64,000 nucleotides of DNA from Octopus vulgaris (GCA_951406725.2 OX597816.1:10602001-10666000); one strand, 5' to 3'; counted from the first letter of the stretch, positions 618 to 64,000 are shown. The notes: generated by a model not told the origin, from the letters alone. Numbers and translations are program-made.

Positions 618-832
618 GTGACCTCGTGTGTACTGTTGGCGATTTTTTTTACCTCTGTCTTCCCTTCTCTGGATCTTTCCTTCTCCTATGTTTCCTTCTC
701 CTATGTTTCCTTCTCCTATGTTTCGAAACGTTAAACCCTCCTTCTTCCCTTCTTTCCTGAGCGTCCAATAATACTATATTTGTTCCACGTCCCCGCGTTG
801 TGATTTTTTGTGTTTTCTTGTTTGGATTAACT
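618..832 (+). mobile_element. Short non-autonomous Penelope-type repeat; hammerhead core replaced by 3x15-bp tandem
   Basis: Inverted homolog at 48212-48418. tttccttctcctatg x3 at 676-720 precedes GAAACGTTAAAC. Confidence 0.5.
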
Positions 833-1087
833 ATATATATATATATATATATACACGTGTGTGTGTGTGTGTGTGTGTACACACACACACAGACAGAGGA
901 TGAGCTTTTTTAAAGGTTCCATCATAAGACTTTGGTCTGCCTGGGATTATAGTAGAAGACACCTAAGCTGGCATGGAGTGGGAAGGAACATGAAACCACG
1001 TGGGTGGGAGGCAGACTTTCTAGAAATGGACACAAACATAAAAACAAGCAAGCATGCATGTATGTATGTATAGATACCTAACACTTG

Positions 1088-1389
1088 TACTCCGTCTGTT
1101 ATGATGATCAATGAAACAACCTGCTCGTGAAATTAACGTGCAAACGGCTGGGCACTTCACAGACGTATGTACCCTTAATATAGTTCTCAAAGAGATTCAG
1201 TATGACACAGGAAGTGACAAGGCCAGTCCTTTGAATTACCGGTACTACTCACTTTAGCTAATTAAGTGAACTGGAACAATGTAAAATAAAGAATCTTGCT
1301 CAAGGACACAAAGCACCACCAGGAATCGAACACAAGACCTTACGATCATGAGACGAATCCCCTAACCCACTAAGTCACGCGCCTTCACT
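1088..1389 (-). mobile_element. tRNA-derived SINE (family D)
   Basis: Minus strand reads gtgaaggcgtgacttagtggg...gttcgattcc...gtgtccttgagcaaga (A/B boxes). Homologs at 21480-21785 and 34342-34640. Confidence 0.75.
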
Positions 1390-2124
1390 CTATATGCATA
1401 CATACACTGGAAAAAAGATATGCATTAAGTCTAGCAGATTCAGAAATGTACTGTGTAATGGTATTAGGATGAATATATTTACCGTAATGCATAGTGGAAC
1501 GCATTGAGAATGATTGGAAAATAAGTTCAATAATAGAGCTATGAGGTGGAAAGCAAGAAGAAATATTAGCAATGGTAGAATGAGTAATGTATTATATGGA
1601 GAGAAATAAAGCAAAAATAAGAAGAAACATAATTTTTGTTGTTTTCTTTCTTCATACAAATGAACAGATAATTGTATGTAGAATGGTAAATGGTAAATAA
1701 AAATGGTATCATTGCAGTACAGTAATGAACACAGAAACTAAAGTGAAAGGGAAAAAAAATGTATATCAAAATGCATGCATACATACGTACGTACGAACAT
1801 GTATATATGTGTAAAGGGATATGTGTTTGTGCATGCATAAGTATGTATATGTGTATATATATATATATGTATATATATGTATGTATGTATAACCATATAT
1901 AAAACCAACCAAACAACAATGAAAACTACAAAACCCAACCCAGTGAAAAACTTAACTTCCAGCTATAAAATATGCCAATTGCAACTCACAGAGAAATCCG
2001 TCAATCCCTTAAATTTGCAATAAACGGATAGAAGAATAAGCTATAAATTAAATGCATACATATATATACATACATATAAACATACATGCACGCACATATA
2101 TTTATACATATACATATATATATT

Positions 2125-2157
<33 letters not shown>

Positions 2158-2984
2158 ATACACACATATATATATATATGAAAAGAAAATGAAAAGGTTA
2201 TATATACGTTGAATTATTTCAAAGTGTAGGATTTTTTTTTCTTTTCCGTATTTTACATTTTACTCTTCTTTTTCTTTGAATTCAATCATGAACAAATTTC
2301 TCTGAAGAATTCCCCAGATTTCTTTCTCAAAGAAAATGAAGAAACAATGCACAAAATAATTCTCTTTCTTCATCAACATGAAAGATACACCATTTTATTA
2401 TTATCATTATTATTATTATTATTATCCATTATTAGCTTTATGGTGTACTGGACTGGCAGAATCATTGGAGCACTGGAAAAAATTGCTTTAGGTATTTGTT
2501 CCAATGCTTTATATACTGAGTTCAATCCCTGATGATGTCAAAGTTGTCTTTCATTCTCCAGCATTAATAAAGTAGCGTATTTGTGAAACATTTACTCTTT
2601 GCCTTCAAAATTGCTGGCCTTGTTCCAAAATTATCATCATCATCTTGATTATCATTCCGTGGTCAATTTTGCCTTTCATCCTTTCGGGGTTGATAAAATA
2701 AGTACCAGTGATACACTGGGGTCGATGTAATCTACTAGTTCCCTCTCTCCAAAATTCCAGGCCTTGTGCCTTTAGTAGAAAGGATTATTATAATCATTAT
2801 TATCATTATTATTATTATTATTATTATTATTCCGAGGTCGATTTTGCCTTTCATCCTTTCGGAGTTGATAAAATAAGTACCAGCTGAATACTAGGGCCGA
2901 TGTAATCAACTTACTTCCTCCCTCAAAATTTCAGGCCTTGTACCTTTAGTAGGAAGGATTATTATTATTATTATTATTATTCAG

Positions 2985-3595
2985 CAGTCTGATTTTCATC
3001 ATGTGCTTTCACTGCTCTACTGAGCACAGCTCTCTGTGTCTTAAGTATGTGCTGTGGTTTGATGTGGTGATCTTATTTTCACTGTATTGAAAGTGTTTTA
3101 CATAGGATGTTTGCATTGCCTAGTAGTGCTATTTTCTGTATGTTGTATAAATTTGTAAGTCCTGATGTTTTGGTTATGTATTTGTCAGAATGTCTTTAAT
3201 TATACATAATGCACGTATTATTATTATTATTATTATAGGGATTGCTTCTGTTTTTAGGTTCTTCATTTGGGTTACTTCTATTTCCAAATCTTTGTATTTT
3301 GGGAGTTTTTCTATTTCTTTTAGAGATATATTGCCATATGTTGATATTGATACATTGATTAGAAAGCATTTTTTCTTGATCTCTGATAACTATATCTGGT
3401 CTATTAGCCTTGATTTCTCAATCTGTATGTATTGGCATATCCCAGAATATGGCTGCTTTGTCATTTTCTGGGATGTGCCTATACCATCTTTTTTCTGTTG
3501 TCATTCGATAGTATTGTTATAGCTGCCAGTGTATATAGGTCCCAACTCTGCCATATCTGTGGATATATTCCTTCTTAGCCAAGCTTCCCCACCAC
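2985..3595 (-). mobile_element. R4/Dong-type non-LTR retrotransposon 3' fragment (restriction-like endonuclease)
   Basis: Minus translation gives YIHWQL...AIFWDMPIHTD*EIKANRPDIVIRD...KYKDLEIEVT...IQKIALLG; adjoins (TTA)n. Confidence 0.85.
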
Positions 3596-4814
3596 CTCAT
3601 ATTCTGCAGTTATTACTATTATGGTTGAAATGCTTAGCGGCATTTAGGCCGACTCTTTCAACCTTTTGGGGGTCGATAAAATTAGTACCAGTTATGCACT
3701 GGGGTTGATGTAATCGACTTAATCCCTTCCCCAAAATTTGAGGCCTTGTGTTTCCAGTATAATAACCATTATAATCATTATTATTATTACTATTATTATT
3801 AAGGAGGTGAGCTTGCAGAACTGTTAGCATGCTGAGCAAAATGCTTAGCTACATTCTGAGTTCAAATTCCACCAAAGTCGACTTTGTTTTTCATCCTTTC
3901 AGGGTCGATAAATTAAGTACCAGTTGAGTACTGGGGATGATCTAATCAACTTGTCCCCTCCCTTACCAAACTTCAAGCCTTGTGCCTATAGTAGAAATTA
4001 TTATTATTATGAGTGGCGAGCTGGTAGAAGCATTAGAGCATCTGACAAAATACTTAGCGACAATTCATCCGTCGTTACTTTCTGAGTTCATATTCTACCC
4101 AGGCCGACTTTGCTTTTCATCCTTTTGAAGTCAATAAAATAAGTACCAGTTGAGCATTGGGGAACAATGTAATCGACTTACTCCTTTCCTTTGCTGACAA
4201 AGTGCAAAAAAAAAAAAATTTGAAGCCATTATTATCATAATTTGGAGGTAGCGAGCTGGCAGAATTGTTAGCAAGCTGGGCAAAATGCTTAGTGGTACTT
4301 TGTCTGTCATCACGTTCTGAGTTCAAATTCCACCGAAGTCAACTTTCCCATTTATCCTTTCAGTGTCAATAAATTCAGTACCAGTTGCATACTGGGGTTG
4401 ATCTAATCAACAAGTCCCCTCCACAAAAATTTCAGGCTTTCTGCCAAGAGTAGAAAGGAAGACTTAGTGGCATTTTATCTGTCTTTACATTCTGAGTTTA
4501 AATTCTGCTGAGGTCGACTTTGCCTTTCATCCTTTCATGGTTGATAAAATTAAATACCAGTTACGTACTGGGGTCGAAGTGATCGAGTGGTCCTCCCTCC
4601 CCTCAAAATCCAGGCCTTGTGCTTATAGTAGAAAAAATTATTATTATTATTATTATTATTATTGTGTTCGAAGTTGTTTTTATTGTTGTTGCTGTCATAG
4701 TTGCTGCTTATTTTATTGAAGTTCATTATAGATTCCATCCATTCATCTGTCCAACAATCTTATCCCTCCAGTCAGCCAGTCTCCCCTTCCTCACACCACT
4801 CTTTCATTCACATA

Positions 4815-5018
4815 CTGCCTTACTGGACCCTGTGCTGGTGGCATGTAAAAAGCACCCACTACACTCTTGGAGTGGTTGGCATTAGGAAGGACATCCAGCT
4901 GTAGAAGCTCTGCCAGGCCAGATTTGAGCCTGGTACAACCGCTGGCTCTCCAGACCTCAGTCAAACCGTCAAACCCATGCCAGCATGGAAAATGGATGTT
5001 AATCGATGATGATGATGA
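4815..5018 (+). mobile_element. (GAT)n-tailed repeat (3' UTR fragment of RTE-type LINE)
   Basis: gagtggttggcattaggaaggacatccagctgtagaa...catgccagcatggaaaatggatgttaatcgatgatgat; many copies in the window. Confidence 0.75.
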
Positions 5019-5639
5019 TATATATATTTTTTCTATTCTCAGTACCAAGGCTCAAAATTTTGGGGGAAGGGACCAGTCAATTAGATTGACCCCAGTACAC
5101 AACTGGTACTTAATTTATTGACCCTCAAAAGGATGAAAGGCAAAGTTGACATCAGCGGAATTTGAACTCAGAACGTAAAGACAGACGAAATACCGCTAAG
5201 TATTTCGCCCGGCATGCTAACGTTTCCGCCAGCCTGCTGTCCTTTTCGATACTCCAATATTCTTTTCTACTCTAGGCACAAGGCCCAAAATTTTTGGGGA
5301 GGGGGCCAGCCGATTAGATTGACCCCAGTACACAACTGATATTTAATTTATCGACTCCGAAAGGATGAAAGGCAAAGTCAACCTCAGCAGAATTTGAACT
5401 CAGAGCATAAAGACAAACGAAATACCTCTAAGCATTTCACCCGGTGTGCTAATGTTTCTCCCAGATCGCTGCCTTATACACATATACATACATTGGAATT
5501 TGTTCTGCATATGAAGACTTGCGTTCAACATATCTCCCAATTTACATGGCACCAAGAATAACCACAGAAATGAAATCATTTATGAAAAGGGATTTTTGTA
5601 AAAAATGATAGAAAAATAAAATATAGAATATATAAAGGG

Positions 5640-6005
5640 AGCAGAACAATCATAACAACAACAGTATCTACAATAGCAACACAAACAACAAGAATAACAT
5701 CGGTAACATTAAAGACAGCAACTGCTAAACAAACAGAGAAAATAGAAGGAATACAACAACATGAACAACAACAACAATCACATGGCAAACAAAAACAACA
5801 ACAAAAATATAACAACAAAACAACAAAAATAACAGAAGCGACAACAAAAACAGAAACTATTAAATGAATACAGAAAACCGAGAGAACATTTGAATGAGAC
5901 AATAACTGCAACAACAACAAAAACAAATGTTGCAATGCAAGAATAATGTCAACAACAACAAAAGCAACACAGCAATAAATTTATCAGCGCAACAATAACA
6001 ACAAA
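5640..6005. repeat. Degenerate (CAA)n low-complexity tract
   Basis: Directly visible. Confidence 0.8.
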
Positions 6006-6128
6006 AAAATTGTTAAACAAATAAATCTCCATTCAAGGGGAATATTTTCATTCATTTCATCGTAGCCAAAATTCCCTATATTCCTCACTCTTGGAGATTT
6101 CTCGGTTGTCGGTGTAGCAGACATTTAA

Positions 6129-6144
6129 CCAATAGATGGCAGCA
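6129..6144 (+). promoter_or_regulatory. Candidate CTCF-like motif
   Basis: CCAATAGATGGCAGCA, one deviation from CCASYAGRKGGCRSY, in a non-repetitive island. Motif match only. Confidence 0.3.
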
Positions 6145-6620
6145 TTCTCTAGATAATCAGAAACATTCCTTCACAATTTTTGCCATTGAATTTCATTGAT
6201 CTCCTTATTTTCCCGATCGATTATCTTCAAGCCTCAGTTTAACATCTCAAACCTTTCCTTTCTTTCTCTCGTTTTGTTTTCTCCATTTTTCTTTGTGATT
6301 ACATTGCAACTGTTGTTTCAGGGACGTTTTCCCAAAAGGACCATGCTGCTGCTGGTGGTGGTGGTGTTTCTTCAAGCCCCAGGCAAGTCCTCATTGAGCA
6401 GACCGTATCATCAACATCACCATTGTCATCACCATCATCATAATCATCATCATGATGTGGTGTCTGTTTTTCCATGCTGATGAGAGTTGAATAGTCTGAC
6501 ATGATCCGATGAACCAAAGGACTGTGGAACTACATCAAGCTCCGACTGTCTACTGAGGGTGGATGGTCTCTATGGCTGGAAACCCATCCTAACACCAATC
6601 ACTTTCTGTCTCTATCATTT

Positions 6621-6661
<41 letters not shown>

Positions 6662-6667
6662 ATATAA

Positions 6668-6751
<84 letters not shown>

Positions 6752-6822
6752 TTTGCTCTATTTACATAATATTGAGGTCTCTTTCTTTCTTTTGTTATCT
6801 TACCGTTTTTACCAATATATAT

Positions 6823-6985
6823 GGGCATGGCTGTGTGGTTAGGGAGCTTTCTACCTAGCTACATGGTTTCGGGTTCAGTCCCACTGTGTGGCACTTTGGG
6901 TAGGTGTCTTCCACTATAGCCTTGAGCCGACCGGAGCTTTGTGATTGAATTCGGTAGGTGGAAGATACTGCCGTGTGTGTATGTG
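6823..6985 (+). mobile_element. tRNA-derived SINE family A (CORE-like), 5' half
   Basis: ggcatggctgtgtggtt...gggttcagtcccactgtgtggcactttgggtaggtgtcttc. Confidence 0.75.
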
Positions 6986-7052
6986 TGTGTATAGCTGCTC
7001 AGTGCCTCTCCGAAAGAGAGAGAGGGATATATATAGATATATATATATATAT

Positions 7053-7338
7053 GTCATTGCCAGTGCTGCTGGACTGGCTCCTGTGCAGGTGTAACACGTA
7101 AAAACACCTTTTCAGCGTGGTCGTTACCAGAACTGCCTGACTGGCCTTTGTACCAGTGGCACATAAAAAGCACCCATTACATTCTCGGAGTGGGTGGCAT
7201 CAGGAAGGGCACCCAGCTGTAGAAACTTTGCCAGATCAGATTGGAGCCTGGTGCAGCCATCTGGCTCACCAGTCTTCAGTCAAACCGTCCAACCCATGCC
7301 AGCATGGAAAGCGGACGTTAAACGATGATGATGATGAT
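7053..7338 (+). mobile_element. (GAT)n-tailed RTE 3' UTR repeat with internal ~60-bp hairpin units
   Basis: Same family as 4815-5018 with extra upstream units. Confidence 0.75.
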
Positions 7339-7399
7339 CAACTTAAAAAATTTATTAGAAGAAACAAACAGAAGATCTGATGAAATGAATGCACTGGAA

Positions 7400-7840
7400 A
7401 CCATACTTAGCTGACATAACCTCAACCAATGCCCTTAGTGATCATAAGTATGATTTTATGAAAAGTGCTTGTTACCCCAACATCACAACAAAATAACAGA
7501 ATATTTAGAAAGCATTAGTTTTGAGAAGATGAAGGAGGCAACATTTCGTTCTTAAATGTATACATTTAAAGGGCACTAAAAAAAAAAGATGAAAGAGTGT
7601 TTAAATTCCCTGAGAAAATATTTGTTCATTCTGACAGGGTACAAATTTGCTATGATACTCGTGTTCAAACATGATGCAAACTAAATGTCAACAATATCAC
7701 AAGCGAAAACAGAAAAGCAAAGTATCGTATAAATAAATGCTCAACTACACAGTACTTCTATGTTTCCTCTATTTTGTAATGAAAGTTTTAGTAGGGCCGA
7801 AAAGCAGAAAGACGAAAACTTGTTATAACAACAATGTTAA
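7400..7840 (+). pseudogene. Highly degraded Pif1-like/Helitron helicase C-terminal fragment
   Basis: ECLNSL, then one frame from 7625: FILTGYKFAMILVF...ISQAKT...FSRAEKQKD. Colinear with EFLNSL / RQFPVRLAF..KSQGQT / LYVAxSR. Stops present. Confidence 0.4.
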
Positions 7841-8119
7841 AACTTGATATTCATTGATGTTATGAAATGCACCCCTCACCACCACACATATATATATATT
7901 TTTCATATCCATACATACACATATACGTATATGTAAATATAAGCATATATTCTTTTATTCTTTTACTTGTTTCAGTCATTTGACTGCGGCCATGCTGGGG
8001 CACTGCTTTTAGTCAAGCAAATCGCCCCCAGGACTTATTCTTTGTAAGTGTAATAATTATTCTATTGGTCTCTTTTGCTGAGCTGCTTTTCATCTCCCAT
8101 TTTTCTTTTTTCTGGTTTT

Positions 8120-8872
8120 ATATACATATATACATACATATATATATATGTATACATAATTATATATACATGCATATATATATATATATACATATATACA
8201 TACATACATACACATACATACATACATACATATATATACATACATACATATATATATATACATACATACATATATATACATACATACATATACATACATA
8301 CATACATATACATACATACATACATATACATACATACATACATATACATATACATACATATATATATATACATACATATACATACATATACATACATACA
8401 TACATATACATACATACATACATACATATACATACATACATATATATATACACATACATATACACATATACATACATACATACATACATATACATACATA
8501 CATATATATATACACATACATATACACATATACATACATACATACATACACATACATACATATATATATACACATACATATACACATACATATATATATA
8601 TACATACATACATATATATATATACATACATACATATATATATATACATACATACATATATATATATATACATACATATATATATATATACATACATATA
8701 TATATATATACATACATATATATATATATACATACATACATATATATACATACATACATATATATACATACATACATATATATACATACATACATATATA
8801 TATATATACATACATACATATATATATATACATACATACATATATATATATACATACATACATATATATATA
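8120..8872. repeat. Compound (TACA)n/(TA)n microsatellite
   Basis: Directly visible; source of the spurious YIHT/MYVC ORFs. Confidence 0.95.
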
Positions 8873-8874
8873 TT

Positions 8875-11272
8875 GGGACGTAGTCAGTCCTCCTGTGCAT
8901 ACCTTCCTTCTTGTGACACTTATGAAGACCTGTTGAGGCAAGTGAAAATCAAATCAAAACAAATCAAAATAGATGAACATCAGTGGAATTGTATTCTTTG
9001 TGGTACCAGTGCCGGTGGCACACAAGAAAACCACCCAAACGTGGCCATAGCCAGTACCGCATCGACTGGCCTCCGTGCTGTGGGCACAACAAACACCATC
9101 CGATCGTGGCCGTTCGCCAGCCTCATCTGGCACCTGTGTCGGTGGCACATAAAGGCACCATCCGAAGACCCGGCGACGTAGTCAGTCCACCTGTGCATAC
9201 CTTCCCTCTTATGACACTTGTGAAGACCTGTTGAGGCAAGTGTGTGACACTTGTGAAGACCTGTTGAGGCAGAGGCAAGTGTGTGACACTTGTGGAGACC
9301 TGTTGAGGCAAGTGTGTGACCCTTGTGAAGACCTGTTGAGGCAAGTGAAAATCAAATCAAACCAAATCAAAATAGATGAACATCAATGGAATTTGTATCT
9401 TTGTGGTTCCAGTACCGGTGGCACACAAGAAAACCATCCGAACGTGGCCGTAGCCAGTACCGCATCGACTGGCCTCCGTGCTGTGGGCACAACAAACACC
9501 ATCTGATCGTGGCCGTTCGCCAGCCTCATCTGGCACCTGTGTCGGTGGCACATAAAAACACCATCCGAAGACCCGGCGACGTAGTCAGTCCACCTGTGCA
9601 TACCTTCCCTCTTATGACACTTGTGAAGACCTGTTGAGGCAAGTGTGTGACACTTGTGAAGACCTGTTGAGGCAGAGGCAAGTGTGTGACACTTTGTGAA
9701 GACCTGTTGAGGCAGAGGCAAGTGTGTGACACTTGTGGAGACCTGTTGAGGCAAGTGTGTGACACGTGTGACACTTGTGAAGACCTGTTGAGGCAAGTGA
9801 AAATCAAACCAAATCAAAATAGATGAACATCAATGGAATTTGTATCTTTGTGGCTCCAGTACCGGTGGCACACAAGAAAACCATCCGATCGTGGCCGTTC
9901 GCCAGCCTCATCTGGCACCTGTGTCGGTGGCACATAAAAACACCATCCGAAGACCCGGCGACGTAGTCAGTCCACCTGTGCATTCCTTCCTACTTATGAC
10001 ACTTGTGAAGACCTGCTGAGGCAAGTGTGTGACACTTGTGTAGACCTGTTGAGGCAAGTGAAAATCAAAAATCAAAATCAAATCAAATCAAATCAAAATA
10101 GATGAACATCAATGGAATTTGTATCTTTGTGGTACCAGTACCGGTGGCACACAAGAAAACCATCCGAACGTGGCCGTAGCCAGTACCGCATCGACTGGCC
10201 TCTGTGATGTGGGCACATAACAAACACCATCTGATCGTGGCCGTCCGCCAGCCTCATCTGGCACCTGTGTCGGTGGCACATAAAAACACCAACCGAAGAC
10301 CCGGCAAGACTAGTCAGGCCATAACCCATGGCCCCTACTTGGGACGTAGTCAGTCCACCTGTGCATACCTTCCTTCCTTCTTGTGACACTTGTGAAGACC
10401 TGTGAAGACCTGTTGAGGCAAGTGAAAATCAAATCAAATCAAATCAAAATAGATGAACATCAATGGAATTTGTATCTTGTGGTACCAGTGCCGGTGGCAC
10501 ACAAGAAAACCATCCGAACGTGGCCGTAGCCAGTACCGCATCGACTGGCCTCCGTGCTGTGGGCACGCAACAAACACCATCCGATCGTGGCCGTTCGCCA
10601 GCCTCATCTGGCACCTGTGTCGGTGGCACATAAAAACACCATCCGAAGACCCGGCAAGACTAGTCAGGCCATAACCCGTGGCCCCTACCTGGGACGTAGT
10701 CAGTCCACCTGTGCATACCTTCCTTCTTGTGACACTTGTGAAGTCCTGTTGAGGCAAGTGAAAATCAAATCAAATCAAAACAAATCAAAATAGATGAACA
10801 TCAATGGAATTTGTATCTTTGTGGTACCAGTGCCGGTGGCACACAAAAAATCATCCGAACGTGGCCGTAGCCAGTACCGCATAGACTGGCCTCCGTGCTT
10901 TGGGGACGTAACAAACACCATCCGATCGTGGCCGTCCGCCAGCCTCATCTGGCACCTGTGTCGGTGGCACATAAAAACACCATCCGAGCGTGGCCGTCTG
11001 CCAGCCTCGTCTGGCACCTGTGTCGGTGGCACATAAAAACACCATCCGAGCGTGGCCGTTCGCCAGCCTCGTCTGGCACCTGTGTCGGTGGCACATAAAA
11101 TCACCCACTACACTCTCGGAGTGGTTGGCGTTTGGAAGGGCATCCAGCTGTAGAAACACTGCCAGATCTGACTGGCCTGGTGCAGCCTTCGGGCTCCCCA
11201 GACCCCAGTTGAACCGTCCAACCCATGCTAGCATGGAAAACGGACGCTAAATGATGATGATGATGATGATGA
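8875..11272 (+). repeat. Hierarchical tandem array (six ~300-400-bp units) ending in a (GAT)n-tailed RTE 3' end
   Basis: gacgtagtcagtcc recurs at ~8877, 9176, 9578, 9960, 10344, 10693. Nested 30-36-bp and ~60-bp subunits plus (AAATC)n. Confidence 0.9.
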
Positions 11273-11396
11273 TACATATATATATATACATACATACATA
11301 CATACATATATACATACATATATATATATATACATACATATATATATACATACATACATATATATATACATACATATATATATACGTATGTGTGTA

Positions 11397-11442
<46 letters not shown>

Positions 11443-12186
11443 TACATAGATATATATATCCCTCTCTCTCTCTTGGATAGGCACCTACACACACGGCAGT
11501 AACTTCCACCTACCAAATTCAATCACAAAGCTTCAGTTGGCCCGGGGCTATAGCAGAAGACACTTGCCCAAAATGCCAGGTGGTGGGACTGAACCCAAAA
11601 CCATGTAGCTAGGAAGCAAGCTCCTTAACCACACGGCCATACACATACACACGAATGTATGCATGTATATAAATGTGCATTCGTGTGTGTGTCCCCTTGT
11701 CATGACGTCACATGATGGTTGTCAACAAGTTTCACCAGCATACGAGTGATTTCATTTGTCATTAGTCTCCTGTGAAAAACAGGTCCAGCCATGAGAAAAT
11801 ATTACCTTGCTTGGAAACAGGTAACAGTCTGGCAACAGTAAAAGCATCCGTTAGTGGAAAATCTACCTGAACGAATCCCGTCTGATCTACAAAAGCATGG
11901 GGAAAGTTGATGTTACAACGATGTTAACAATCACACTGATAATGATGACGATCGTGATGACGTATCGAGTTTCTTTATTCGTGCCGCTGCTTAGTTTCAC
12001 GTCTCTGTTTTCTCGGGTGACTGGTTATACCGTGCTTGATGTTTATAAAACTGTAGGTCCATTTGCTCAGTCCTTGCAGAAAAAGCAAATTACCTACAAA
12101 AAAACCCATGTTTTAAAGATGAACATGTAAATAAATAAACATGTTACTAACCCTGGATATAAATTCAGCAACACAGAGCTTTGGAT

Positions 12187-13110
12187 TAGAGGAAGTGTTT
12201 GCAAAGACTGCATGCTGGGATTTTCTTTGATCATCACTGGTAGGGTAGCTTTGCTTTCTGGATGTGTGTACATGTGCATGCATGTGTGTGTGTGTGTGTG
12301 TGTGTGATGGAGTTTTATGAATATTTTATCTTTTAATGATTGTTTAGTGTGAATGCTTGATGTGAATTCTAATTGGAAGAGGCTAAGTGATTCTATTGAT
12401 CATCATTTCAATTGGAGGATGGGGGAGAAAGAGAAAGTGATAGGAAAAGAAGAATCATTCTATGAAAGTTGGAAATATATAGAGGTCATAGAGGGGCTGA
12501 CCTTGAGGAATGGTGTATTGTTTGGTAGGTGATGGATAATTAATGAAGGTGAGCTGAGGCATTTTGCAGCCAGCTGTGGTGATGACAGGTGGATTGAAGA
12601 AGAGACCTGATAAAAGAAGTGGGTAAAATAATGATGATGACGACGATAATAATAACAACAACAACAACAACAATAATGATAATAATAAAAATAATAATAA
12701 CAACAACAGTAATAATAATTATAATTTTAGCTCAGCATCACATTAAGGGTATGTGCTACTGCTTTACTCAATAATAATAATAATAATGATGATGATAAAA
12801 ATAATAATTAATAACAACAAAATAAAATAATGATAAAACCAATTTGGCAAAAAAAAAAACATATATGTATATTGATAGACAGGTGTGAATGTAAATAATA
12901 AAAACTAAATCTATGAGAAAATATATGAATATGAGGATGAATAATCAATAATCAATAAATCTAATCATAAAAGAAAAAAAAAATTGAGAAAAAAAAAACT
13001 AATAAAATATATCGTAGACATGACGATGTGTGTGGAGATGAGAGGTGAAGATGAATAAATATAAAAATGTATGAAAAATATCCTATGAATAAAAAATGGG
13101 ACTTGGTGGT
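12187..13110 (+). repeat. Left arm of a long inverted duplication
   Basis: Reverse complement of 16993-17760; blocks 12312-12422 and 12875-12979 are near-identical. Confidence 0.9.
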
Positions 13111-13169
13111 TAAAATAATAATAATAATAATAATACAGCTGATGATAATAATAATAATAATAAAATTGT

Positions 13170-13528
13170 AGCTCAGCGTCACAGTTGACAACGTTTCTCT
13201 AAAAGAAATGGAGAAACTTTCAAAATACAAAGACCTGCAAATAGAGGTAACCAGAATGTGGAATCTAAAAACAGAAACAATTCCTATCATAGTAGGTGCA
13301 TTAGGCATGATAAAAAAATATTCAGACAAATACATAACAAAAACACCTGGGCTTACAAACACATATAGCATACAGAAAATAGCACTACTGGGCACTGCAC
13401 ACATCCTAAGTAAAAACACTTTTCATACAGTGAAAATAAGAGCATCACAGCAAACCACAACACATACCCAAGGCACACAGAGCTGCGCTCGGTAGTGAAG
13501 TGAAAGCACATAAAAAAAATTAAGACTA

Positions 13529-13530
<2 letters not shown>
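13170..13530 (+). mobile_element. R4/Dong-type LINE 3' end
   Basis: ORF 13208-13495 EKLSKYKDLQIEVTRMWNLKTETIPIIVGALG...IQKIALLGTAHIL, followed by (AAT)n. Confidence 0.85.
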
Positions 13531-13580
<50 letters not shown>

Positions 13581-13824
13581 GCAACAACATGCTCAAAATA
13601 CTGCTTTATTGAGGACAGTAGGGTAGAACATGCTCAAGAAACTGCTGTATTGGGAACAGCAAGCATTTTGAGATTGGTACTGGTGTGTTAGGTATCTTCC
13701 ATGATACTCAACACCTAAGTGGAAAGAGACTCAGTGAGACCATTGACAACAGGTTGCACTCTGATCTTACGGAATTAAGCAGAGCAAATAAGCTCAAGAT
13801 CTCTGAGAAATAGTCTAGTTATAA

Positions 13825-14225
13825 TAATCCTGTCTACTCAATGCATAAAGCCTGAAATTTTGGAGGAGGGAACTAGTCGATTACATCAACCCCCAGGGTT
13901 TCACTGGTAATTAATTTACCAACCCCGAAAGGATGAAAGGCAAAGTCAACCTCAGTGGAATTTGAACTCGTAACATAGCGACAGGCAAAATACCTATTTC
14001 TTTACTACCGACAAGGGGCTAAACACAGAGAGGACAAACAAAGACAGACAAACGGATTAAGTCGATTATATCGACCCCAGTGCATAACTGGTACTCAATT
14101 TATCGACCCCAAAAGGATGAAAGACAAAGTTGACCTCGGCGGAATTTGAACTCAGAATGTAGCAACAGGCAAAATACCGCTAAGCATTTCGCCTGGTGTG
14201 CTAACGATTCTGCCAGCTCTCCACC
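13825..14225 (-). mobile_element. Two SINE family B copies, one with the alternative 3' tail
   Basis: aaaggatgaaaggcaaagtcaacctc..gaatttgaactc occurs twice; tail tttctttactaccgacaaggggctaaacacagag. Confidence 0.8.
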
Positions 14226-15244
14226 CTAACGATAATGATGATGATGATAATGCTCTGATGCAATACCAGGCATTGACTCTCATGGTTTTTCATCTTAACT
14301 GACTGGTAGTGTTATGTACATGCTTTGTCTTGGTATAAAAGATGGGCTACAGCAAATATTCTGCTCAATATCACAGATTTGATTGTCAGTTGTTTGACCT
14401 TAACCAGTTGAACATGTCCCTTAGTGGCTGACGATATGTGCATCTCTGATCACATGCACTAGTTGGGGAACATCATAGCCATGTGCTGAGAAGAATTGTT
14501 TGGGTTTTGGATAATTCACCTCTTTAAACATTGGTGTTTCATTCAACATCCTTAAAGAAGCCTTATTCAGGGACCTTTTGAGCAGGATTGGCTACTCGAT
14601 CTGAAGAGAATTCTAACTGGTCGCCACCTGCAAGGTCATGTGCTGCTTATCTAGATATGAGATCACCATGTCATGCACATATGGTTGCAATGCATGTGTC
14701 CTTATCAAATGGGTAGTCATGATAGTATATTGGGCTTGTACCCCAGTGTCACTTTAATAGCATGCGCTGCTCTCTCAACCAATAATAATAATAATAATGA
14801 AGCTTTCAGTCAAATTGTAACTTCACATCCTTCACTCGCCTCAGGATGCTTGGTGTGTCTCAGCAAATGATTGTGATAAACACAAAGATTAAAAGTTTAA
14901 AAAAAAAAGTTATTTTCTCCTGCAGACAGTATTTTCAATCGCATGGCAACTTATTCCTTCATAGCATTTTCAAATGTAAAATCTTGTTCTTTGACAGCTG
15001 TGGTTCAGACTTGGGTGTAATTCTCATAAATTAAAGCAAAACATAATAAGAATCCGTTGTACTGTAGGTAAATGGCCTAGTCTATTACATCTTCACAGAT
15101 ACTCAACTGGTACTAATCTTATTTACCCAGAAAGAATGAATGGTGCAGTCGACCGGAATGTAAAAGCTGAGAGAAACGCTGCTAGTCATTTTGTCTGACA
15201 TGCTAATGATATTACCAGCTCACTGCCTCACAACAACAACAACA

Positions 15245-15625
15245 GCGAGGCTGTAACTGAGGGAGAAAATATAATGATTCTTTGGGACTTTCCAGTATGT
15301 TCAGACCAGACAATCAAAACAACTAAACCAGATATTGTTGTGAAAGACCAAAACAATAAAGTCTGTTTACTGATCAGCATCAGCATATCCTGTGACCATA
15401 ATATCTTGGCAAAAGAATTTGGAAGGCTCGGAAAATATAAAGATTTGCTAATCAAAATGGAAAAGATGTGGCATCTCAAAATGGTTACAAAACCAGTGAT
15501 TGTAGGAACAGTTGGAATGATCCTAAAAGGAACTGAAGATTATTTAAAAATGATCCATGCAGAGAGTGCAGAAGATTGTCTTAACTGGTATGTCATATGT
15601 ACTGAGAAGAGCATTGTCACTGAAT
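15245..15625 (+). mobile_element. R4/Dong-type RLE fragment
   Basis: ILWDFPVCSDQTIKTTKPDIVVKD...KYKDLLIKMEKMWHLK...PVIVGTVG. Confidence 0.8.
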
Positions 15626-15680
15626 TAATTTTCTTTCCCTTTTCCCTCTTTATTTTCTGTCTTCTTCTGAAAGAAGCCTG

Positions 15681-15752
<72 letters not shown>

Positions 15753-16099
15753 CCTCCACCACTATCACTTGATAACCAATGCTGGTGTGTATACATCCCC
15801 GTAACTTAGTGGTTCAACAAACAGAGCAAATAGAATACTGGGCTTACAAGGAATAAGTTCTGGGGTTCATTTGTGTGACTAAAGGCATTGCTGCAGCATG
15901 GCCACAGGCAAATGAATGAAACAAATAAAAGAATACATGCACTTACTGCAAGTGTACGCCAACAGAGATATAGACATACAGAAGTGGGTAGCTACTGTAA
16001 TTCATTAGCCTAGGCTTTTGGCAGCCAAAGTAAGTTATTAGTAGATGTTTCAATCGTGAGTTTCTTTTAACTCATCATCACAATATCAGTGATATTTCG

Positions 16100-16560
16100 A
16101 TGACTGGCATCTGTGCCAGTGGAGTGCTAAGAGCACCATCCGAGCATGATCGTTGCCAGGGCCGCTGACTGGCTCCCATGCCGGTGGCACGTAAAAAGCA
16201 CCATTCAAGTGTGACTGTTACCAGTATCACCTTACTAGCACTTGTGCCAGTGGCACATGAAAAACATTTGAGCGAGGTCATTACCAGTGCCGCTGGACTG
16301 GCTCCTGTACAGGTGGCACGTAAAAAAACCATTTGAGCATGGCTTTTGCCAGTACCGCCTGACTGGTCCTCGTGCCGGTGGCACATAAAACTACCCACTA
16401 CACTCTTTGAGTGGTTGGCATTAGGAAGGGCATCCAGCTGTAGAAACTCAGCCAGATCAGATTGGAGCCTGGTGCAACCATCTGGTTCGCCAGTCTTCAG
16501 TCAAACCGTCCAACCCATGCTAGCATGGAAAGCTGACGTTAAACGATGATGATAATGATG
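16100..16560 (+). mobile_element. (GAT)n-tailed RTE 3' UTR repeat with about five hairpin units
   Basis: gtgccggtggcacgtaaaaagcacc-type motif recurs every ~60 bp before the common tail. Confidence 0.8.
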
Positions 16561-16992
16561 CAATTCATTACATCTGATATTCAGTATTTATAGAAAGGAG
16601 AACCCTATAAGTTTGCATATCTCAGCAGTACCTTTACTGCCCATTCTTGTTTTGGTCATCCATTTTCTATTCAGAAGAGGCAAATGATTTTCAATACATA
16701 CTTCTAACATTACCAGTGCTTTATTAACGCTATCACTGTCAATGCTATTGGGTTTACAACATATATTATTGCATCATTCACTTCTTCACACCTGTATCTC
16801 AATTGTAAGCTATGGTTCTTTACGGTCTGAGTTCAAATTCCACCGAGGTCGACTTTACCTTTCATCTTTTTGGTACAGATAAAATAAGTACTAGTTGAAT
16901 ACTGGGGACCATGTAAACAACTATGAACCCTCCACTTGAATTTCCGGCCTCGTGCCTTAGTGATCGATTATTATTATTATTATTATTATAAC

Positions 16993-17760
16993 AACAACCA
17001 AGTTCAATTTTTTTAATTTACAGGATATTTATTTAGTACATTTTGATATTTATTCATCTCCACCTCTCATCTCCACACACACCGACATGTCTACAATATT
17101 TTTTATTAATTTTTTTCTTTTATGATTAGATTTATTGATTATTGATTATTCATCCTCATATTCATATATTTTCTCATAGATTTAGTTTTTATTATTTACA
17201 TTCACACCTGTCTATTCATCTATGTTTATTTTTTTATTTGCAAAATTGATTTATTACTATCACGGTTGTTATTATTATTATTGTTGTTGTTGCTGTTGTC
17301 ATTATTATTATTATTTTACCCACTTCTTTTATCAGGTCTCTTCTTCAATCCACCTGTCATCACCACACCTGACTGCTGAATGCCTCAGCTCACCTTCATT
17401 AATTATCCATCACCTACCAAACAATAAGATATTCTTCAAGGTCAACCTCTCTATGACCTCTATATATTTCCAACTTCCATAGAATAATCCTTCTCTTTCT
17501 CTCCCCCCCTCTCTCTCTCTGTCTCTCCCATCCTCCAATTGAAATGGTGATCAATAGAATCACTTAGCCTCTTCCAATTAGAATTCACATCAAGCATTCA
17601 CACTAAACAATCATTAAAAGATAAAATATTCATAAAACCCCATCATATTCTGCTCTCTCTCTCTTTCTCACACACACACTCACACACAAATCAAAGCCAC
17701 TTTATACCCATCTATCAAAGAAAATCCCAGCATGCAGTCCATGCGAATATTTCCTATAGA
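16993..17760 (-). repeat. Right arm of the long inverted duplication
   Basis: See 12187-13110. Confidence 0.9.
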
Positions 17761-24105: not shown

Positions 24106-24356
24106 AATCGATTAGTCGGCTCCCACGAAACTGCTGACCTCGTGCCAAAATTTGAAATCCATATTTTCTTTCAAAAAGAGAATCAACTCGTTCATAAATG
24201 TGGTTTAACAAATGAAGTGGTGTCTTGCACTGATTCACTCATGCGTAGCTGCATCTGCTTATAGACGGCAGCAAACTTTCTGAATTGAAATATCTGTTAA
24301 AACGACATCATTTGATTTTCTGGAGCAATCAGGATATGAAACGCCAAGACCTTTTT

Positions 24357-24625
24357 GGTACTACTTGAGAACAGTGGTCCCGGTGCGCACACTCGCATAC
24401 TCGCGCATCCGCCTTAGCTAGTCGTGACTAGTCGATCCTTACTTTGTGTTTTTGCGTTTTATTTACTTTGTTTAACAAAAATTATTTACTTTGTGTCAAA
24501 AAATTATTTTGTGTTTTATTTACTTTGCTAGGTCGTCGTTTTAGGATCGACTAGTCACGACCAGCTAGCGCAGATGCGCGACAACGCGAGTGCGCGCACC
24601 GGGACCACTGTTCTCAAGTAGTACC
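24357..24625. mobile_element. MITE with long TIRs, probably Merlin superfamily
   Basis: TIR GGTACTACTTGAGAACAGTGGTCCCGGTGCGC (GGNRM terminus); second copy at 31606-31900. Confidence 0.8.
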
Positions 24626-30822: not shown

Positions 30823-31605
30823 TCACTAGAATATTACCAAAGTCATAAAAAATTCGACTATTCATGTAGAAACGGGTCTAAAAGCAGTTTCATCTTTGGC
30901 ACACTCTATCTGAGCAAGACCACTACTATATATTCAGCAGGCACCAGACCGGACACAGAAGGTGGCAGTCAGCAGGTGGTAGGAAAAGCAAAAGCTGTCC
31001 AGAGCACTGTCATTATACCCTTATTAATATTTTCGTCTGCCACTGCAATGATCTGAGTTCAAATTCTGCCACGGTCGACTTTGCCTTTCATCCTTTCGGG
31101 GTCGATTAAATAAGTACCAGTTATGCACTGGGGTCGTAGTAACAACATTTTTTTTGTTTACAATAAAAATATTCTTTTATAAAAAAAAATTTCAAACAGA
31201 TTTTAGGGATCTTTATCGCAACAAAGATAATCAATCGAATATGATAGATGCAAATAAACAGCAAGTGTTATTATTATCCGGGGCGAGCTGGCAAAATCGT
31301 TTGGGGCAGAATGATTTAACATTTTCCCTTCTGATTCTTTAAGTGCTGGTTTCAAATTTCGATGCGGTCAACTTTGCATTATGTATCTCTCGGAGCGATA
31401 ACACAAAATACTAATTTAGTATTAGGGACTAACAGAATAGATTGCTTCCCCCAACTTGCAAGCTTTTTGCCGAAATAAGGTCCTATTAACTTAGAAGGAC
31501 GTAAAAGATTGCATAATTCTTAGTATTTTAATGTGTACAGCTGGTAATTTTTGGTACCATTACAGTTGATTTTCTCTTTAGTTTATTCATTCAAAAGATC
31601 TTTTG

Positions 31606-31900
31606 GGTACTATTTAAGAAGAGTGGTCCCGGTGCGCGCACTCGTGTAGTCGCGCATGCGCGCTACCCAGCCGTGACTAGTCGATCCTTACTTTGTGTTT
31701 TTGTATTTTATTTATTTTGTTTAGAAAAATTATTTACTTTGCTTTAAAAAAATTATTTACTTTGTGTAAAAAAAATATTTATTTTGTGTTTTATTTACTT
31801 TGCTAGGAAGTCGTTGTAGGATCAACTAGTCACGACTAGCTAGGGTGGATGCGCGACAACGCGAGTGCGCGCACCGGGACCACTCTTCTTAAGTAGTACC
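31606..31900. mobile_element. Merlin-type MITE, second copy
   Basis: Same TIRs; 9-bp TSD gatcttttg/gattttttg. Confidence 0.85.
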
Positions 31901-61311: not shown

Positions 61312-64000
61312 TATAATAATTCACTTAGGCATTGTGATATTATTAAGCAGTTGTTAGAACTCAATATACATTTGGTGAGTACAGAGTGTAATATGAATGG
61401 AATACAAAAGAACAAGAGTCAGGTGGTCACTTCCATTGGCTTACAGTTGTTTCTGCTATAAGAAGCATTACACTCAAAGCTGAGTGCTTGTGTAGCATAT
61501 GAGTTTCCTTGGAGTTATTTAGATGAAGTGTGTGTTTACTTCAAAAAGTATCAAAATACATAGAGTTGGTTACATGCAGAAACAGTTATGTAAAGAAATA
61601 TAATGGAGTCTGTTGGTGGAAAATCCTTCCAAAGGTACATAGATGAACAAATACATATGTATTCATACATCCCACATAATAAACAAGCATATATCTAGGC
61701 AAACACATAGAGATACTTATAGAAATACATATCAGTTCACATTTATAGGCACATACATATGAGTACAAATATGTAAATGAAACAGCTCGGAGTGCAATGC
61801 TTCTTATAGACGAAACAGTTATAAGCTAATGAAATTTTTAGTCTTTCATTAATTGAGATGTGTGTGTGTGTGTGTATACATGTATGTGTTTATATATAAA
61901 AGAATATTAAAATAATAATAATACAGGGTAAGATTAATTAATTAATCAATTAATTAATTGATTAATAATTAATAATTTTACCAAATAATCAGTTGGTATG
62001 TGGCGAAGCACTTAGCTAACAAATGTTGTGTTTCATCTCCTTTCATGTTACAGGACCAGCCTGTTGGTAGGTGTGGGGATGCATCTATTTAACACATTGC
62101 CTCACTTCAACCTGGGTTTTAAAGACCAAGCACAATCTTCTGTATGCTCCTGATTATAATTATATTTATGTATATAATTATAGAATATTTTGTATAAAAG
62201 AATGTTATATATGTTTCAGTAGACAGGCCTTTTATTGATTATACATGCATTATGTCATAAGCAAATGTCCTCCACATCTTCAGGTATCCAACTGTCAAGG
62301 CCTCAAGACAGTGGAGATTGGTTGTAACCAATTGATACACTTGTGTGTGTATTTAGGTTATATAGAGGAGATAGACTATTTAGCTTTTGTTTTCATCTTC
62401 TGTCTGTACGGTTGTGTTGCAAACATTACAACCCTAGATTTAATACTGCTATTAATGTCCCTAGCTGTGATCTTTGTGTTTCATCTCCTTTCATGTTACA
62501 GCACCAACCTGTTGGTAGGTGTGGAGATGCATCAATTTAACACATTGCCTCACTTCAACCTGAGTTTTAAAGACCAAGCACAATCTTCCGTATGCTCCAT
62601 CCCAGTTGATGGTTAGAGTTATTTCCAACTGCATGTGTTAGGTCATATAGAAGCTTCCTTCATTTTTGGAAAAAACAGAGATATGCAACTCTTCTCTGTG
62701 CCTGATCATCATCATCATCCTCATTGTTGTTTAACATCTCCTTTCCATGCTGGCAAAGGTTGGGTGGTTTGTCTGAGGACTGGTAAGCTAGAAGGCTGCA
62801 CAAGGCTCCAGTCTGACCTGGCAAAGTTTCTACAGCTGGATGCCCTTTCTAATACTACCCACTCTGATAGTGTAGTGGGTGCTTTTTATGTGCCACTGGC
62901 ACGGGACCAGTCAGGCAGTACTGGCATCGACTATGCTTGAATGGTGCTTTTTACTTGCCATCATCTTGAATGAATCTTGGGCAAAGAAGCACTGGCCTTT
63001 GTAACATGCACCATCCAAGTTCTTTTCTTTTCCAGGAGATGACTTTATCAATTAACTTCTCCAGATGAGCAACAGTTGCAACATTGCTGCTATTGTTATT
63101 AGTATTAATGTTTTTCAAAACACTGCTATCTTTCATTTGTTAGAATGTCTTCAGTATTTACATATTTGAACATATTCGTCTTACTTTTTCTCTTTCTTTA
63201 ACTCCATACTATTGTTATCAATTATTTTATTTGGAAGCATAGCAATACTGCCTCAATCATTGCTTGTATTTCTTCCTACTCTCAGAAAAGGAGGCATATT
63301 AAATTACCAGTAGCCATTTCTTAAAAAAACAATAATATAATGTATAAAAGACAGATATCACTTCTGTGCCAGCTAATGATGCAGACATCCAAATGGTCTA
63401 TAATTCCTATTTGCAAAACGAAACCAAATTCTTTTTCATTACCAAATATGTCATAAAAGAAATAAAAGATTTTCCTGGAAGAGGAAAGGGAAGAATTATC
63501 GCAAGATTTTAATGAAAGGCATTAATTAACCTTGGTGGAATTTAAACTCAGAACATCAAGAGACACAACAAAATACAGCAAGGTCTTTGCTTCTTTCCTC
63601 AACTAATTCTGCCAATTCTCAAAAATAATTCACCAATGCTATGTTTTTCTGTTTACTGATATCATAAGTAAATAAACAGGCAGACTTCAGATTAATATTT
63701 CTTACAACGGAAGAAATAAGCACACACTGCAGGAAAAAAATATAATAGAAATAATCCCAGAAAATGGAACAAAATATTTTTCTCTGAGCTACTACCTCCT
63801 CTGTGTCAGGTAAAAACAAAAAGATACTATTATAAAATATATTATATTAAGGAAATATATAGTGAATAAAGTACCCAAAATACCTGGAATTAAAGAATTA
63901 TTTAATAATATTTACCTGTAAAGTTAGAAAGATTCTGAAATAATAACAAAAAGCACGGTATATTAGTGCAAACATATTATTTACGGAAAACTGTAGCAAA

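What the first reader, a model, noticed from the sequence alone, without database searches (positions are those of the whole stretch)
12187..17760. Long inverted duplication of unique DNA with near-identical blocks
Seen: arms 12187-13110 and 16993-17760, ~3.9 kb apart. Blocks 12312-12422/~17527-17638 and 12875-12979/~17111-17215 are near-identical, while flanks are clearly diverged and the intervening microsatellites differ. Blocks are non-coding and contain TAAT/CAATTG/CAGGTG motifs. Inference: patchy conservation implies selection (paired enhancers, or a long intronic dsRNA such as an ADAR substrate in an editing-rich lineage) or arm-to-arm gene conversion.
Basis: partly seen in the sequence, partly recalled or inferred. 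Interest (0 to 1): 0.7.

Follow-up and report, generated by a model that had tools for sequence, protein, structure and literature searches.

The report
Octopus inverted twin with conserved blocks
An octopus genome carries two mirror-image copies of an 800-base non-coding stretch, both also present in a related organism, and one of their near-identical blocks barely changed between the two organisms, so it is likely a duplicated gene-control element rather than an RNA-editing hairpin.

Summary
The arms (12187-13112, 16992-17760) are about 90% alike and found only twice in the 2.8-Gb genome. Perfect runs of 99 and 91 nt exceed uniform divergence (P<1e-5; 1e-4 to 1.4e-3 under conservative nulls). 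A DNA run of related organism E holds both arm types with their arm-specific letters, so the duplication predates that split. In E's arm 1, block 1 has 0 listed substitutions in 91 nt plus one 7-nt insertion, against 15 in the next 156 nt (P 0.0008-0.13 by counting rule). Conversion alone does not predict that. Best reading (0.45): a locally duplicated non-coding element, likely an enhancer, under sequence constraint, its orientation incidental. An ADAR duplex is unsupported: no host exon among 230 ORFs scanned from 864 kb, two possibly-RNA runs show only arm 2, no editing-type letters. These are weak negatives. Block 2 was not compared across species. The scan had no note on this DNA but noted similar duplications elsewhere in this genome.

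The parts
12187..13112 (+). Arm 1 of the inverted duplication; non-coding, purine-rich and C-poor on this strand (purines 64%, C 8%)
   Evidence: 2 genome matches
16992..17760 (-). Arm 2, reverse complement of arm 1
   Evidence: held by runs of 6 coded organisms A-F at word share 0.24-0.76
12312..12423 (+). Block 1 in arm 1: 91-nt perfect run, one mismatch (12403), 20 more matches; nearly unchanged in organism E
17527..17638 (-). Block 1 in arm 2
   Evidence: arm-2 contigs in runs X8 and X5
12875..12973 (+). Block 2 in arm 1: 99-nt perfect run; not compared across species
17117..17215 (-). Block 2 in arm 2
12516..12563 (+). 48-nt perfect run (partner 17379-17426); 2 substitutions in E arm 1 and 1 in F arm 2, so not clearly constrained
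12575..12632 (+). 58-nt perfect run (partner 17310-17367); at least 1 substitution in F arm 2
12494..12515 (+). Patch of old arm-specific differences kept in both this genome and organism E (dates the duplication, argues against frequent conversion)
   Evidence: tables 3 and 7
12633..12835 (+). Expanded AAT/AAC microsatellite with a short insertion, about 140 nt longer than in arm 2
   Evidence: tail resembles 13142-13184
13136..16968 (.). Spacer: 74% locally repeated DNA (SINE-like and retroelement fragments, several at AAT tracts); about 1 kb not locally repeated, 16565-16830 single-copy

Best explanation
This is a single-copy local inverted duplication of about 800 non-coding bases, present in this genome and in related organism E, that likely copied a cis-regulatory element (enhancer), and the near-identical blocks are likely the parts where selection keeps the sequence in both copies. 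Shown: two copies, patchy identity, both arm types in E, block 1 almost unchanged in E's arm 1. Inferred: transcription factors would bind the blocks; each copy would act on its own, so the inverted orientation would be an accident of the duplication; later insertions at AAT tracts widened the spacer from about 1 kb or less to 3.9 kb; occasional short conversion may have added to the likeness. The target gene is unknown.
For: Patchiness beyond chance. E arm 1 versus this arm 1: 0 listed substitutions in 91 nt of block 1 against 15 of 156 outside (P 0.0008; 0.005 if the one unlisted difference lies in the block); leaving out the GA-rich tract 8 of 127 (P 0.012; 0.054). Conversion copies new mutations to both arms but would not lower divergence between species (established reasoning). 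Five arm-specific letters at 12494-12514 persist in both organisms, and E's arm-1 changes at 12523 and 12526 are absent from E's arm 2, so conversion is not frequent here. No host exon among 230 ORFs scanned from 864 kb; in Drosophila, clustered conserved blocks in exon-poor DNA worked as enhancers in 19 of 19 tests (PMC3632565, abstract). No coding or structured-RNA signal in the arms.
Against: The cross-species test rests on one contig of one run and one block. Counting only E-branch changes outside the GA tract gives 0/91 versus 6/127, P 0.037, rising to 0.13-0.28 if the unlisted difference or the insertion is counted. E carries a 7-nt insertion inside block 1 and a change in the CAATTG motif. 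Block 2 is untested. Mismatches are enriched near simple repeats (26 of 210 versus 19 of 360 sites, P 0.003), so part of the patchiness is mutational. Selection for base pairing would also slow change between species. No chromatin data, no target gene, no homeobox near the locus among 98 matches. Motif excesses are post hoc.
Confidence: 0.45

Rival explanations
1. Neutral old duplication with occasional arm-to-arm gene conversion; the blocks are about 100-nt conversion tracts.
For: Arms are close and inverted. Run X8 (organism A) has the arm-1 letter at 12403 on an arm-2 contig, 21 nt from an arm-2 letter, while this genome and X5 (organism C) have the arm-2 letter: one possible conversion, or a polymorphism. 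E's block-1 contig has 1.50 times the depth of its arm-2 contig; models give 1.42 if both arms share E's insertion, 1.27 if not, 1.0 if uncollapsed. Concerted evolution of inverted repeats is published (PMC1803023, abstract and Discussion).
Against: Block 1 is conserved between organisms, the opposite of the signature in PMC1803023 (structure kept, sequence diverged). Old arm-specific letters persist 20-110 nt from block 1 in both organisms; E's arm-1 changes at 12523 and 12526 were not copied.
Confidence: 0.22
2. Selection for a long-range RNA duplex (ADAR substrate or splicing bridge) in a long intron or non-coding transcript that spans both arms.
For: A transcript over both arms would pair strongly (duplex energies -147 to -313 kcal/mol per segment; true of any 90% inverted repeat). 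Stems also evolve slowly between species. Octopus has very high hyper-editing linked to neighbouring inverted repeats (PMC5625713, passages). Two runs guessed to be RNA hold arm 2.
Against: Those two runs (X8, X16) gave arm-2 contigs only (3 of 3 records) and no A>G or T>C letters beyond arm-2 DNA letters; no joints. Mismatches show no wobble bias (15 versus 14 of 44). ADAR does not need perfect blocks (own knowledge). No host exon found. All are weak negatives because contigs lose hyper-edited and rare reads and some records are filtered.
Confidence: 0.12
3. No function and no conversion: uneven mutation rate, with changes clustering near microsatellites and indels and the blocks being cold stretches.
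For: Mismatch odds are 2.5 times higher within 20 nt of simple repeats; 7 of E's 15 listed substitutions lie in the GA-rich tract; collapsing clusters raises P for the longest run to 0.04.
Against: Stratified permutation still gives 1e-4; 0 of 258 and 0 of 78 repeat pairs from the same region show two such runs.
Confidence: 0.15
4. Relic of a DNA transposon with long terminal inverted repeats whose family is otherwise gone.
For: The genome has such elements: a 1.2-kb inverted pair at L085/L086 is 99.8% alike and has 1,039 candidates genome-wide.
Against: Only two copies of the arms, while a family at 71-79% identity next door is detected easily; no target-site duplication seen by eye; it would not explain the blocks.
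Confidence: 0.06

Closest known systems
Enhancers as clusters of conserved sequence blocks in exon-poor DNA (Drosophila; PMC3632565, abstract read)
   Same: Blocks of high conservation separated by variable spacers in a region where no exon was found
   Different: Here the cluster is present twice in inverted orientation; conservation is shown for one block against one organism about 6% diverged, not over 190 My; no reporter test
Duplicated or paralogous conserved non-coding elements and segmentally duplicated regulatory elements (PMC7139118; 10.64898/2025.12.03.692127; search listing only)
   Same: Two copies of a non-coding element retained after duplication
   Different: Local, about 4-5 kb apart, inverted; function not shown
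Actively maintained intergenic inverted repeats in Caenorhabditis and Y/X palindromes (PMC1803023, abstract and Discussion; PMC3723533, search listing)
   Same: Inverted arms that persist across a species split
   Different: Those arms are over 99% alike by concerted evolution while sequence diverges between species; here the arms are 90% alike, keep old arm-specific letters, and the tested block is conserved between organisms
Hyper-edited dsRNA from neighbouring inverted repeats (PMC5625713, passages)
   Same: Could form a long duplex if co-transcribed; octopus is editing-rich
   Different: Arms are single-copy DNA, not repeats; co-transcription and editing were not seen

Membership tests
High-copy transposon / long-TIR element | Many dispersed copies | tested here: not met
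   2 matches per arm segment against 779-13,508 candidates for neighbouring repeats
High-copy transposon / long-TIR element | Target-site duplication and internal transposase | tested here: inconclusive
   None seen, but age could erase both
Conserved non-coding element / enhancer | Non-coding, single or low copy | tested here: met
   59-aa ORF in arm 1: 0 Pfam hits, 0 hits in 1.84 billion proteins, frameshifted in arm 2 and in E; no Rfam match on the arms
Conserved non-coding element / enhancer | Lower divergence between species than flanking DNA | tested here: inconclusive
   Block 1: P 0.0008-0.28 by counting rule, one run; block 2 not compared
Conserved non-coding element / enhancer | Open chromatin, factor binding, reporter activity, target gene | not testable with these tools
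   No chromatin data identified; no nearby host exon among 230 ORFs scanned
Conversion-maintained palindrome | Species-specific changes shared by both arms | tested here: inconclusive
   Not shared at 12523 and 12526 in E; unresolved for E's block-1 insertion (depth ratio 1.50) and for one unlisted difference; one arm-1 letter on an arm-2 contig in X8
Conversion-maintained palindrome | Arm identity near 99% along the arms | tested here: not met
   89.8% overall
ADAR dsRNA substrate | Both arms on one transcript | tested here: inconclusive
   Arm-2 contigs only in 2 of 2 possibly-RNA runs laid; holes in contigs prove nothing
ADAR dsRNA substrate | A-to-G clusters in RNA | tested here: inconclusive
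   None in contigs of X8 and X16; raw reads were not available among the 24 runs listed

The most novel reading that the evidence does not exclude
The two 100-nt blocks are held both conserved between species and identical between arms because they pair with each other across 4-5 kb (as RNA or as DNA), so that E's 7-nt insertion was copied into both arms: a single-copy, long-lived pairing element in a gene-poor octopus region.
Probability: 0.12. Interest if true: 0.65.

Novelty: new member of a known kind. Interest (0 to 1): 0.35.

Why it matters
Few cis-regulatory elements are known in octopus (own knowledge; a search for octopus, cephalopod and 'conserved non-coding elements' listed 7 papers, none on this in its title). 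A duplicated element lets one genome outline its own constrained parts, so the pair is a ready reporter or ATAC test piece. It also gives a clean case for separating constraint from conversion once more genomes are aligned. If it is only conversion or uneven mutation, it is ordinary.

Tried and rejected
Coding origin of arm 1 (59-aa ORF 12353-12532): no Pfam or protein hit, broken in arm 2 and E. Spliced exon in the arm (acceptor-like site near 12347, donor-like near 12549, seen by eye): X8's contig runs unspliced over both, no joints. Rfam: 8 weak matches, all below gathering score and none on the arms. CCDC-167 Pfam hit 69 kb to the left: a low-complexity K/E/M and hydrophobic tract; two better-placed exon-like hits lie on C11, so rejected as host exon. 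Host gene search: 150 ORFs chosen from the top 300 of 1,321 ranked in 464 kb (obvious transposon ORFs and overlapping frames dropped by eye; 3 added's list) and 80 of 3,357 in 864 kb gave only transposon-type domains or sub-threshold noise; short exons could be missed. Homeobox search: none within C3:9-12 Mb among 98 matches of 150 scored. Word-share simulation for E (observed 19 of 58 words) did not separate conversion, chance and constraint. Motif counts were post hoc and recalled, not used as evidence. No inward or outward extension of the arms among 9 unique pieces compared. A 26-nt block-1 pattern found 0 matches in metagenome contigs. Absence of arm-1 contigs in X8, X16 and X5 is a hole, not proof.

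Full report
Setting. The window is G000:C3:10602001-10666000 of a 2.8-Gb genome in 227 contigs. Earlier notes of the scan call this genome octopus, which fits the SINE-like repeats I recognise from memory; no call of mine names the species.

The repeat is real. Local alignment gives 701 matches in 781 pairs (89.8%). Perfect runs are 99 nt (12875-12973 / 17215-17117), 91 nt (12312-12402 / 17638-17548), 58 nt and 48 nt. On unique segments only (574 columns, 50 events) 0 of 100,000 permutations reached a second run of 91; with clustered mismatches collapsed P = 0.0014. Mismatches are enriched within 20 nt of simple repeats (26 of 210 versus 19 of 360), but a permutation stratified on that still gives 1e-4. 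As an empirical control, repeat pairs of 88-94% identity from the same region had two runs of 90 or more in 0 of 258 and 0 of 78 cases; these pairs overlap each other and are mostly shorter than the arms.

It is not a repeat family. Genome searches gave 2 matches for 12310-12625 and 2 plus a weak 77-nt AT-rich hit for 12835-13110. The same search found 13,508, 2,553 and 779 candidates for neighbouring repeats, the last at 71-79% identity, and 1,039 for a young 1.2-kb inverted pair 360 kb away. The spacer is 74% locally repeated, with several insertions at AAT tracts, so the arms were likely about 1 kb apart or less at first (inference). No homology extends the arms inward or outward.

Other organisms. 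24 runs were listed; 17 hold arm 2 at word share 0.24-0.76, from six coded organisms. I laid 4 of them on 12308-12625, which covers block 1 and the middle but not block 2. Run X12 (organism E, guessed DNA) gave one contig with arm-1 letters at the diagnostic sites (12403, 12424, 12465, 12494, 12497, 12507, 12512, 12514, 12515) and one whose loose end carries arm-2 letters; a third record is unrelated. So both arms exist in E and the duplication predates the split. E's arm 1 differs from this arm 1 at 15 listed places, all in 12409-12526, plus one unlisted place, a 7-nt tandem insertion behind 12394 and a 3-nt deletion at 12421. Block 1 thus has 0 listed substitutions in 91 nt against 15 in 156 (P 0.0008; 0.005 if the unlisted one is in the block; 0.003-0.013 counting indels). 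Without the GA-rich tract: 8 in 127 (P 0.012, 0.054, 0.13). E-branch changes only, without that tract: 6 in 127 (P 0.037, 0.13, 0.28). The all-changes test is the one that bears on conversion, because conversion does not slow divergence between species; the E-branch test is the one free of how the block was picked. The support for constraint is therefore real but modest.

Conversion. Five arm-specific letters at 12494-12514 are the same in both organisms, and E's arm-1 changes at 12523 and 12526 are not in E's arm 2, so conversion is not frequent. Against that: X8 shows the arm-1 letter at 12403 on an arm-2 contig, whereas this genome and X5 show the arm-2 letter; and E's block-1 contig has 1.50 times the depth of its arm-2 contig, nearer the 1.42 expected if both arms share the insertion than the 1.27 if not, within what I judge to be depth noise. 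No separate arm-2 contig of block 1 was laid for E, so this is open. Published conversion-maintained inverted repeats keep structure while sequence diverges (PMC1803023, abstract and Discussion), unlike block 1.

RNA. X8 (organism A) and X16 (organism F) are only guessed to be RNA. Their 3 records are all arm-2 type, with no joints and no A>G or T>C letters beyond arm-2 DNA letters; X16 adds G>A at 12553 and 12581 and one unlisted difference. Paralogous mismatches show no wobble bias (15 versus 14 of 44). Octopus edits inverted-repeat duplexes heavily (PMC5625713, passages), and any transcript across both arms would pair, but such a transcript is not shown; contigs would also lose hyper-edited reads, so this is a weak negative. 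That two small runs from two organisms show arm 2 alone is a hint that arm 2 is the transcribed or open copy, not more.

Context. No Rfam family on the arms. The 59-aa ORF in arm 1 has no homologue and is broken in arm 2 and E. Pfam scans of 230 selected ORFs from 864 kb found only transposon-type domains and one low-complexity artefact, and no homeobox lies near; small exons may be missed, so a long intron is not excluded. The blocks contain TAAT, CAGGTG and several other recalled factor motifs, but these were chosen after the fact in 21-27% GC sequence; CAATTG is outside the perfect run and changed in E.

Verdict. Most likely (0.45) a locally duplicated non-coding regulatory element whose constrained parts appear as blocks, as in Drosophila enhancers of exon-poor regions (PMC3632565, abstract); conversion 0.22, uneven mutation 0.15, RNA duplex 0.12, transposon relic 0.06. 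It is a new member of a known kind. I found no paper on this element in 5 searches (listings only except the three papers cited as read; no supplements seen). Interest 0.35.

Noticed in passing
L085:8741-9922 and L086:1423-2603: Young element with 1.2-kb inverted arms, 99.8% alike, about 1.5 kb apart; at least 40 near-identical copies genome-wide (1,039 candidates), some in inverted pairs: a likely recently active long-TIR transposon.
   Followed up: partly
L035:482-6995: 1.24-kb inverted arms at 98% bordered by TA tracts, enclosing a Myb/SANT-like ORF (below cut-off) and an endonuclease-RT fragment; possibly another long-TIR element.
   Followed up: no
L073:6313-8487 and L090:1-5460: Two more locally low-copy inverted pairs (281 nt at 97.5%; 309 nt at 65% with uniform decay); genome copy number not checked.
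   Followed up: no
window 8873-11300: Complex tandem array of about 300-400-nt units, also present at L012 and L026.
   Followed up: no
window 13172-13700 and 15230-15620: Fragments resembling the endonuclease tail of R4/Dong-type retroelements (recalled likeness, no Pfam hit) sitting at AAT microsatellites.
   Followed up: partly
window 14909-15075: Strong-looking splice acceptor and donor in the unique part of the spacer (seen by eye); the one open frame has no Pfam hit; if it is an exon, the arms would flank it like circular-RNA flanking repeats.
   Followed up: partly
window 12302-13112: Strong strand asymmetry of the arm: only 8% C and 64% purines on the + strand; unexplained.
   Followed up: no
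window 24346-24625 and 31595-31900: Two copies of a 280-300-nt element with 83-nt terminal inverted repeats, MITE-like.
   Followed up: no
window 62026-62150 and 62474-62598: 125-nt direct duplication at 95% identity.
   Followed up: no
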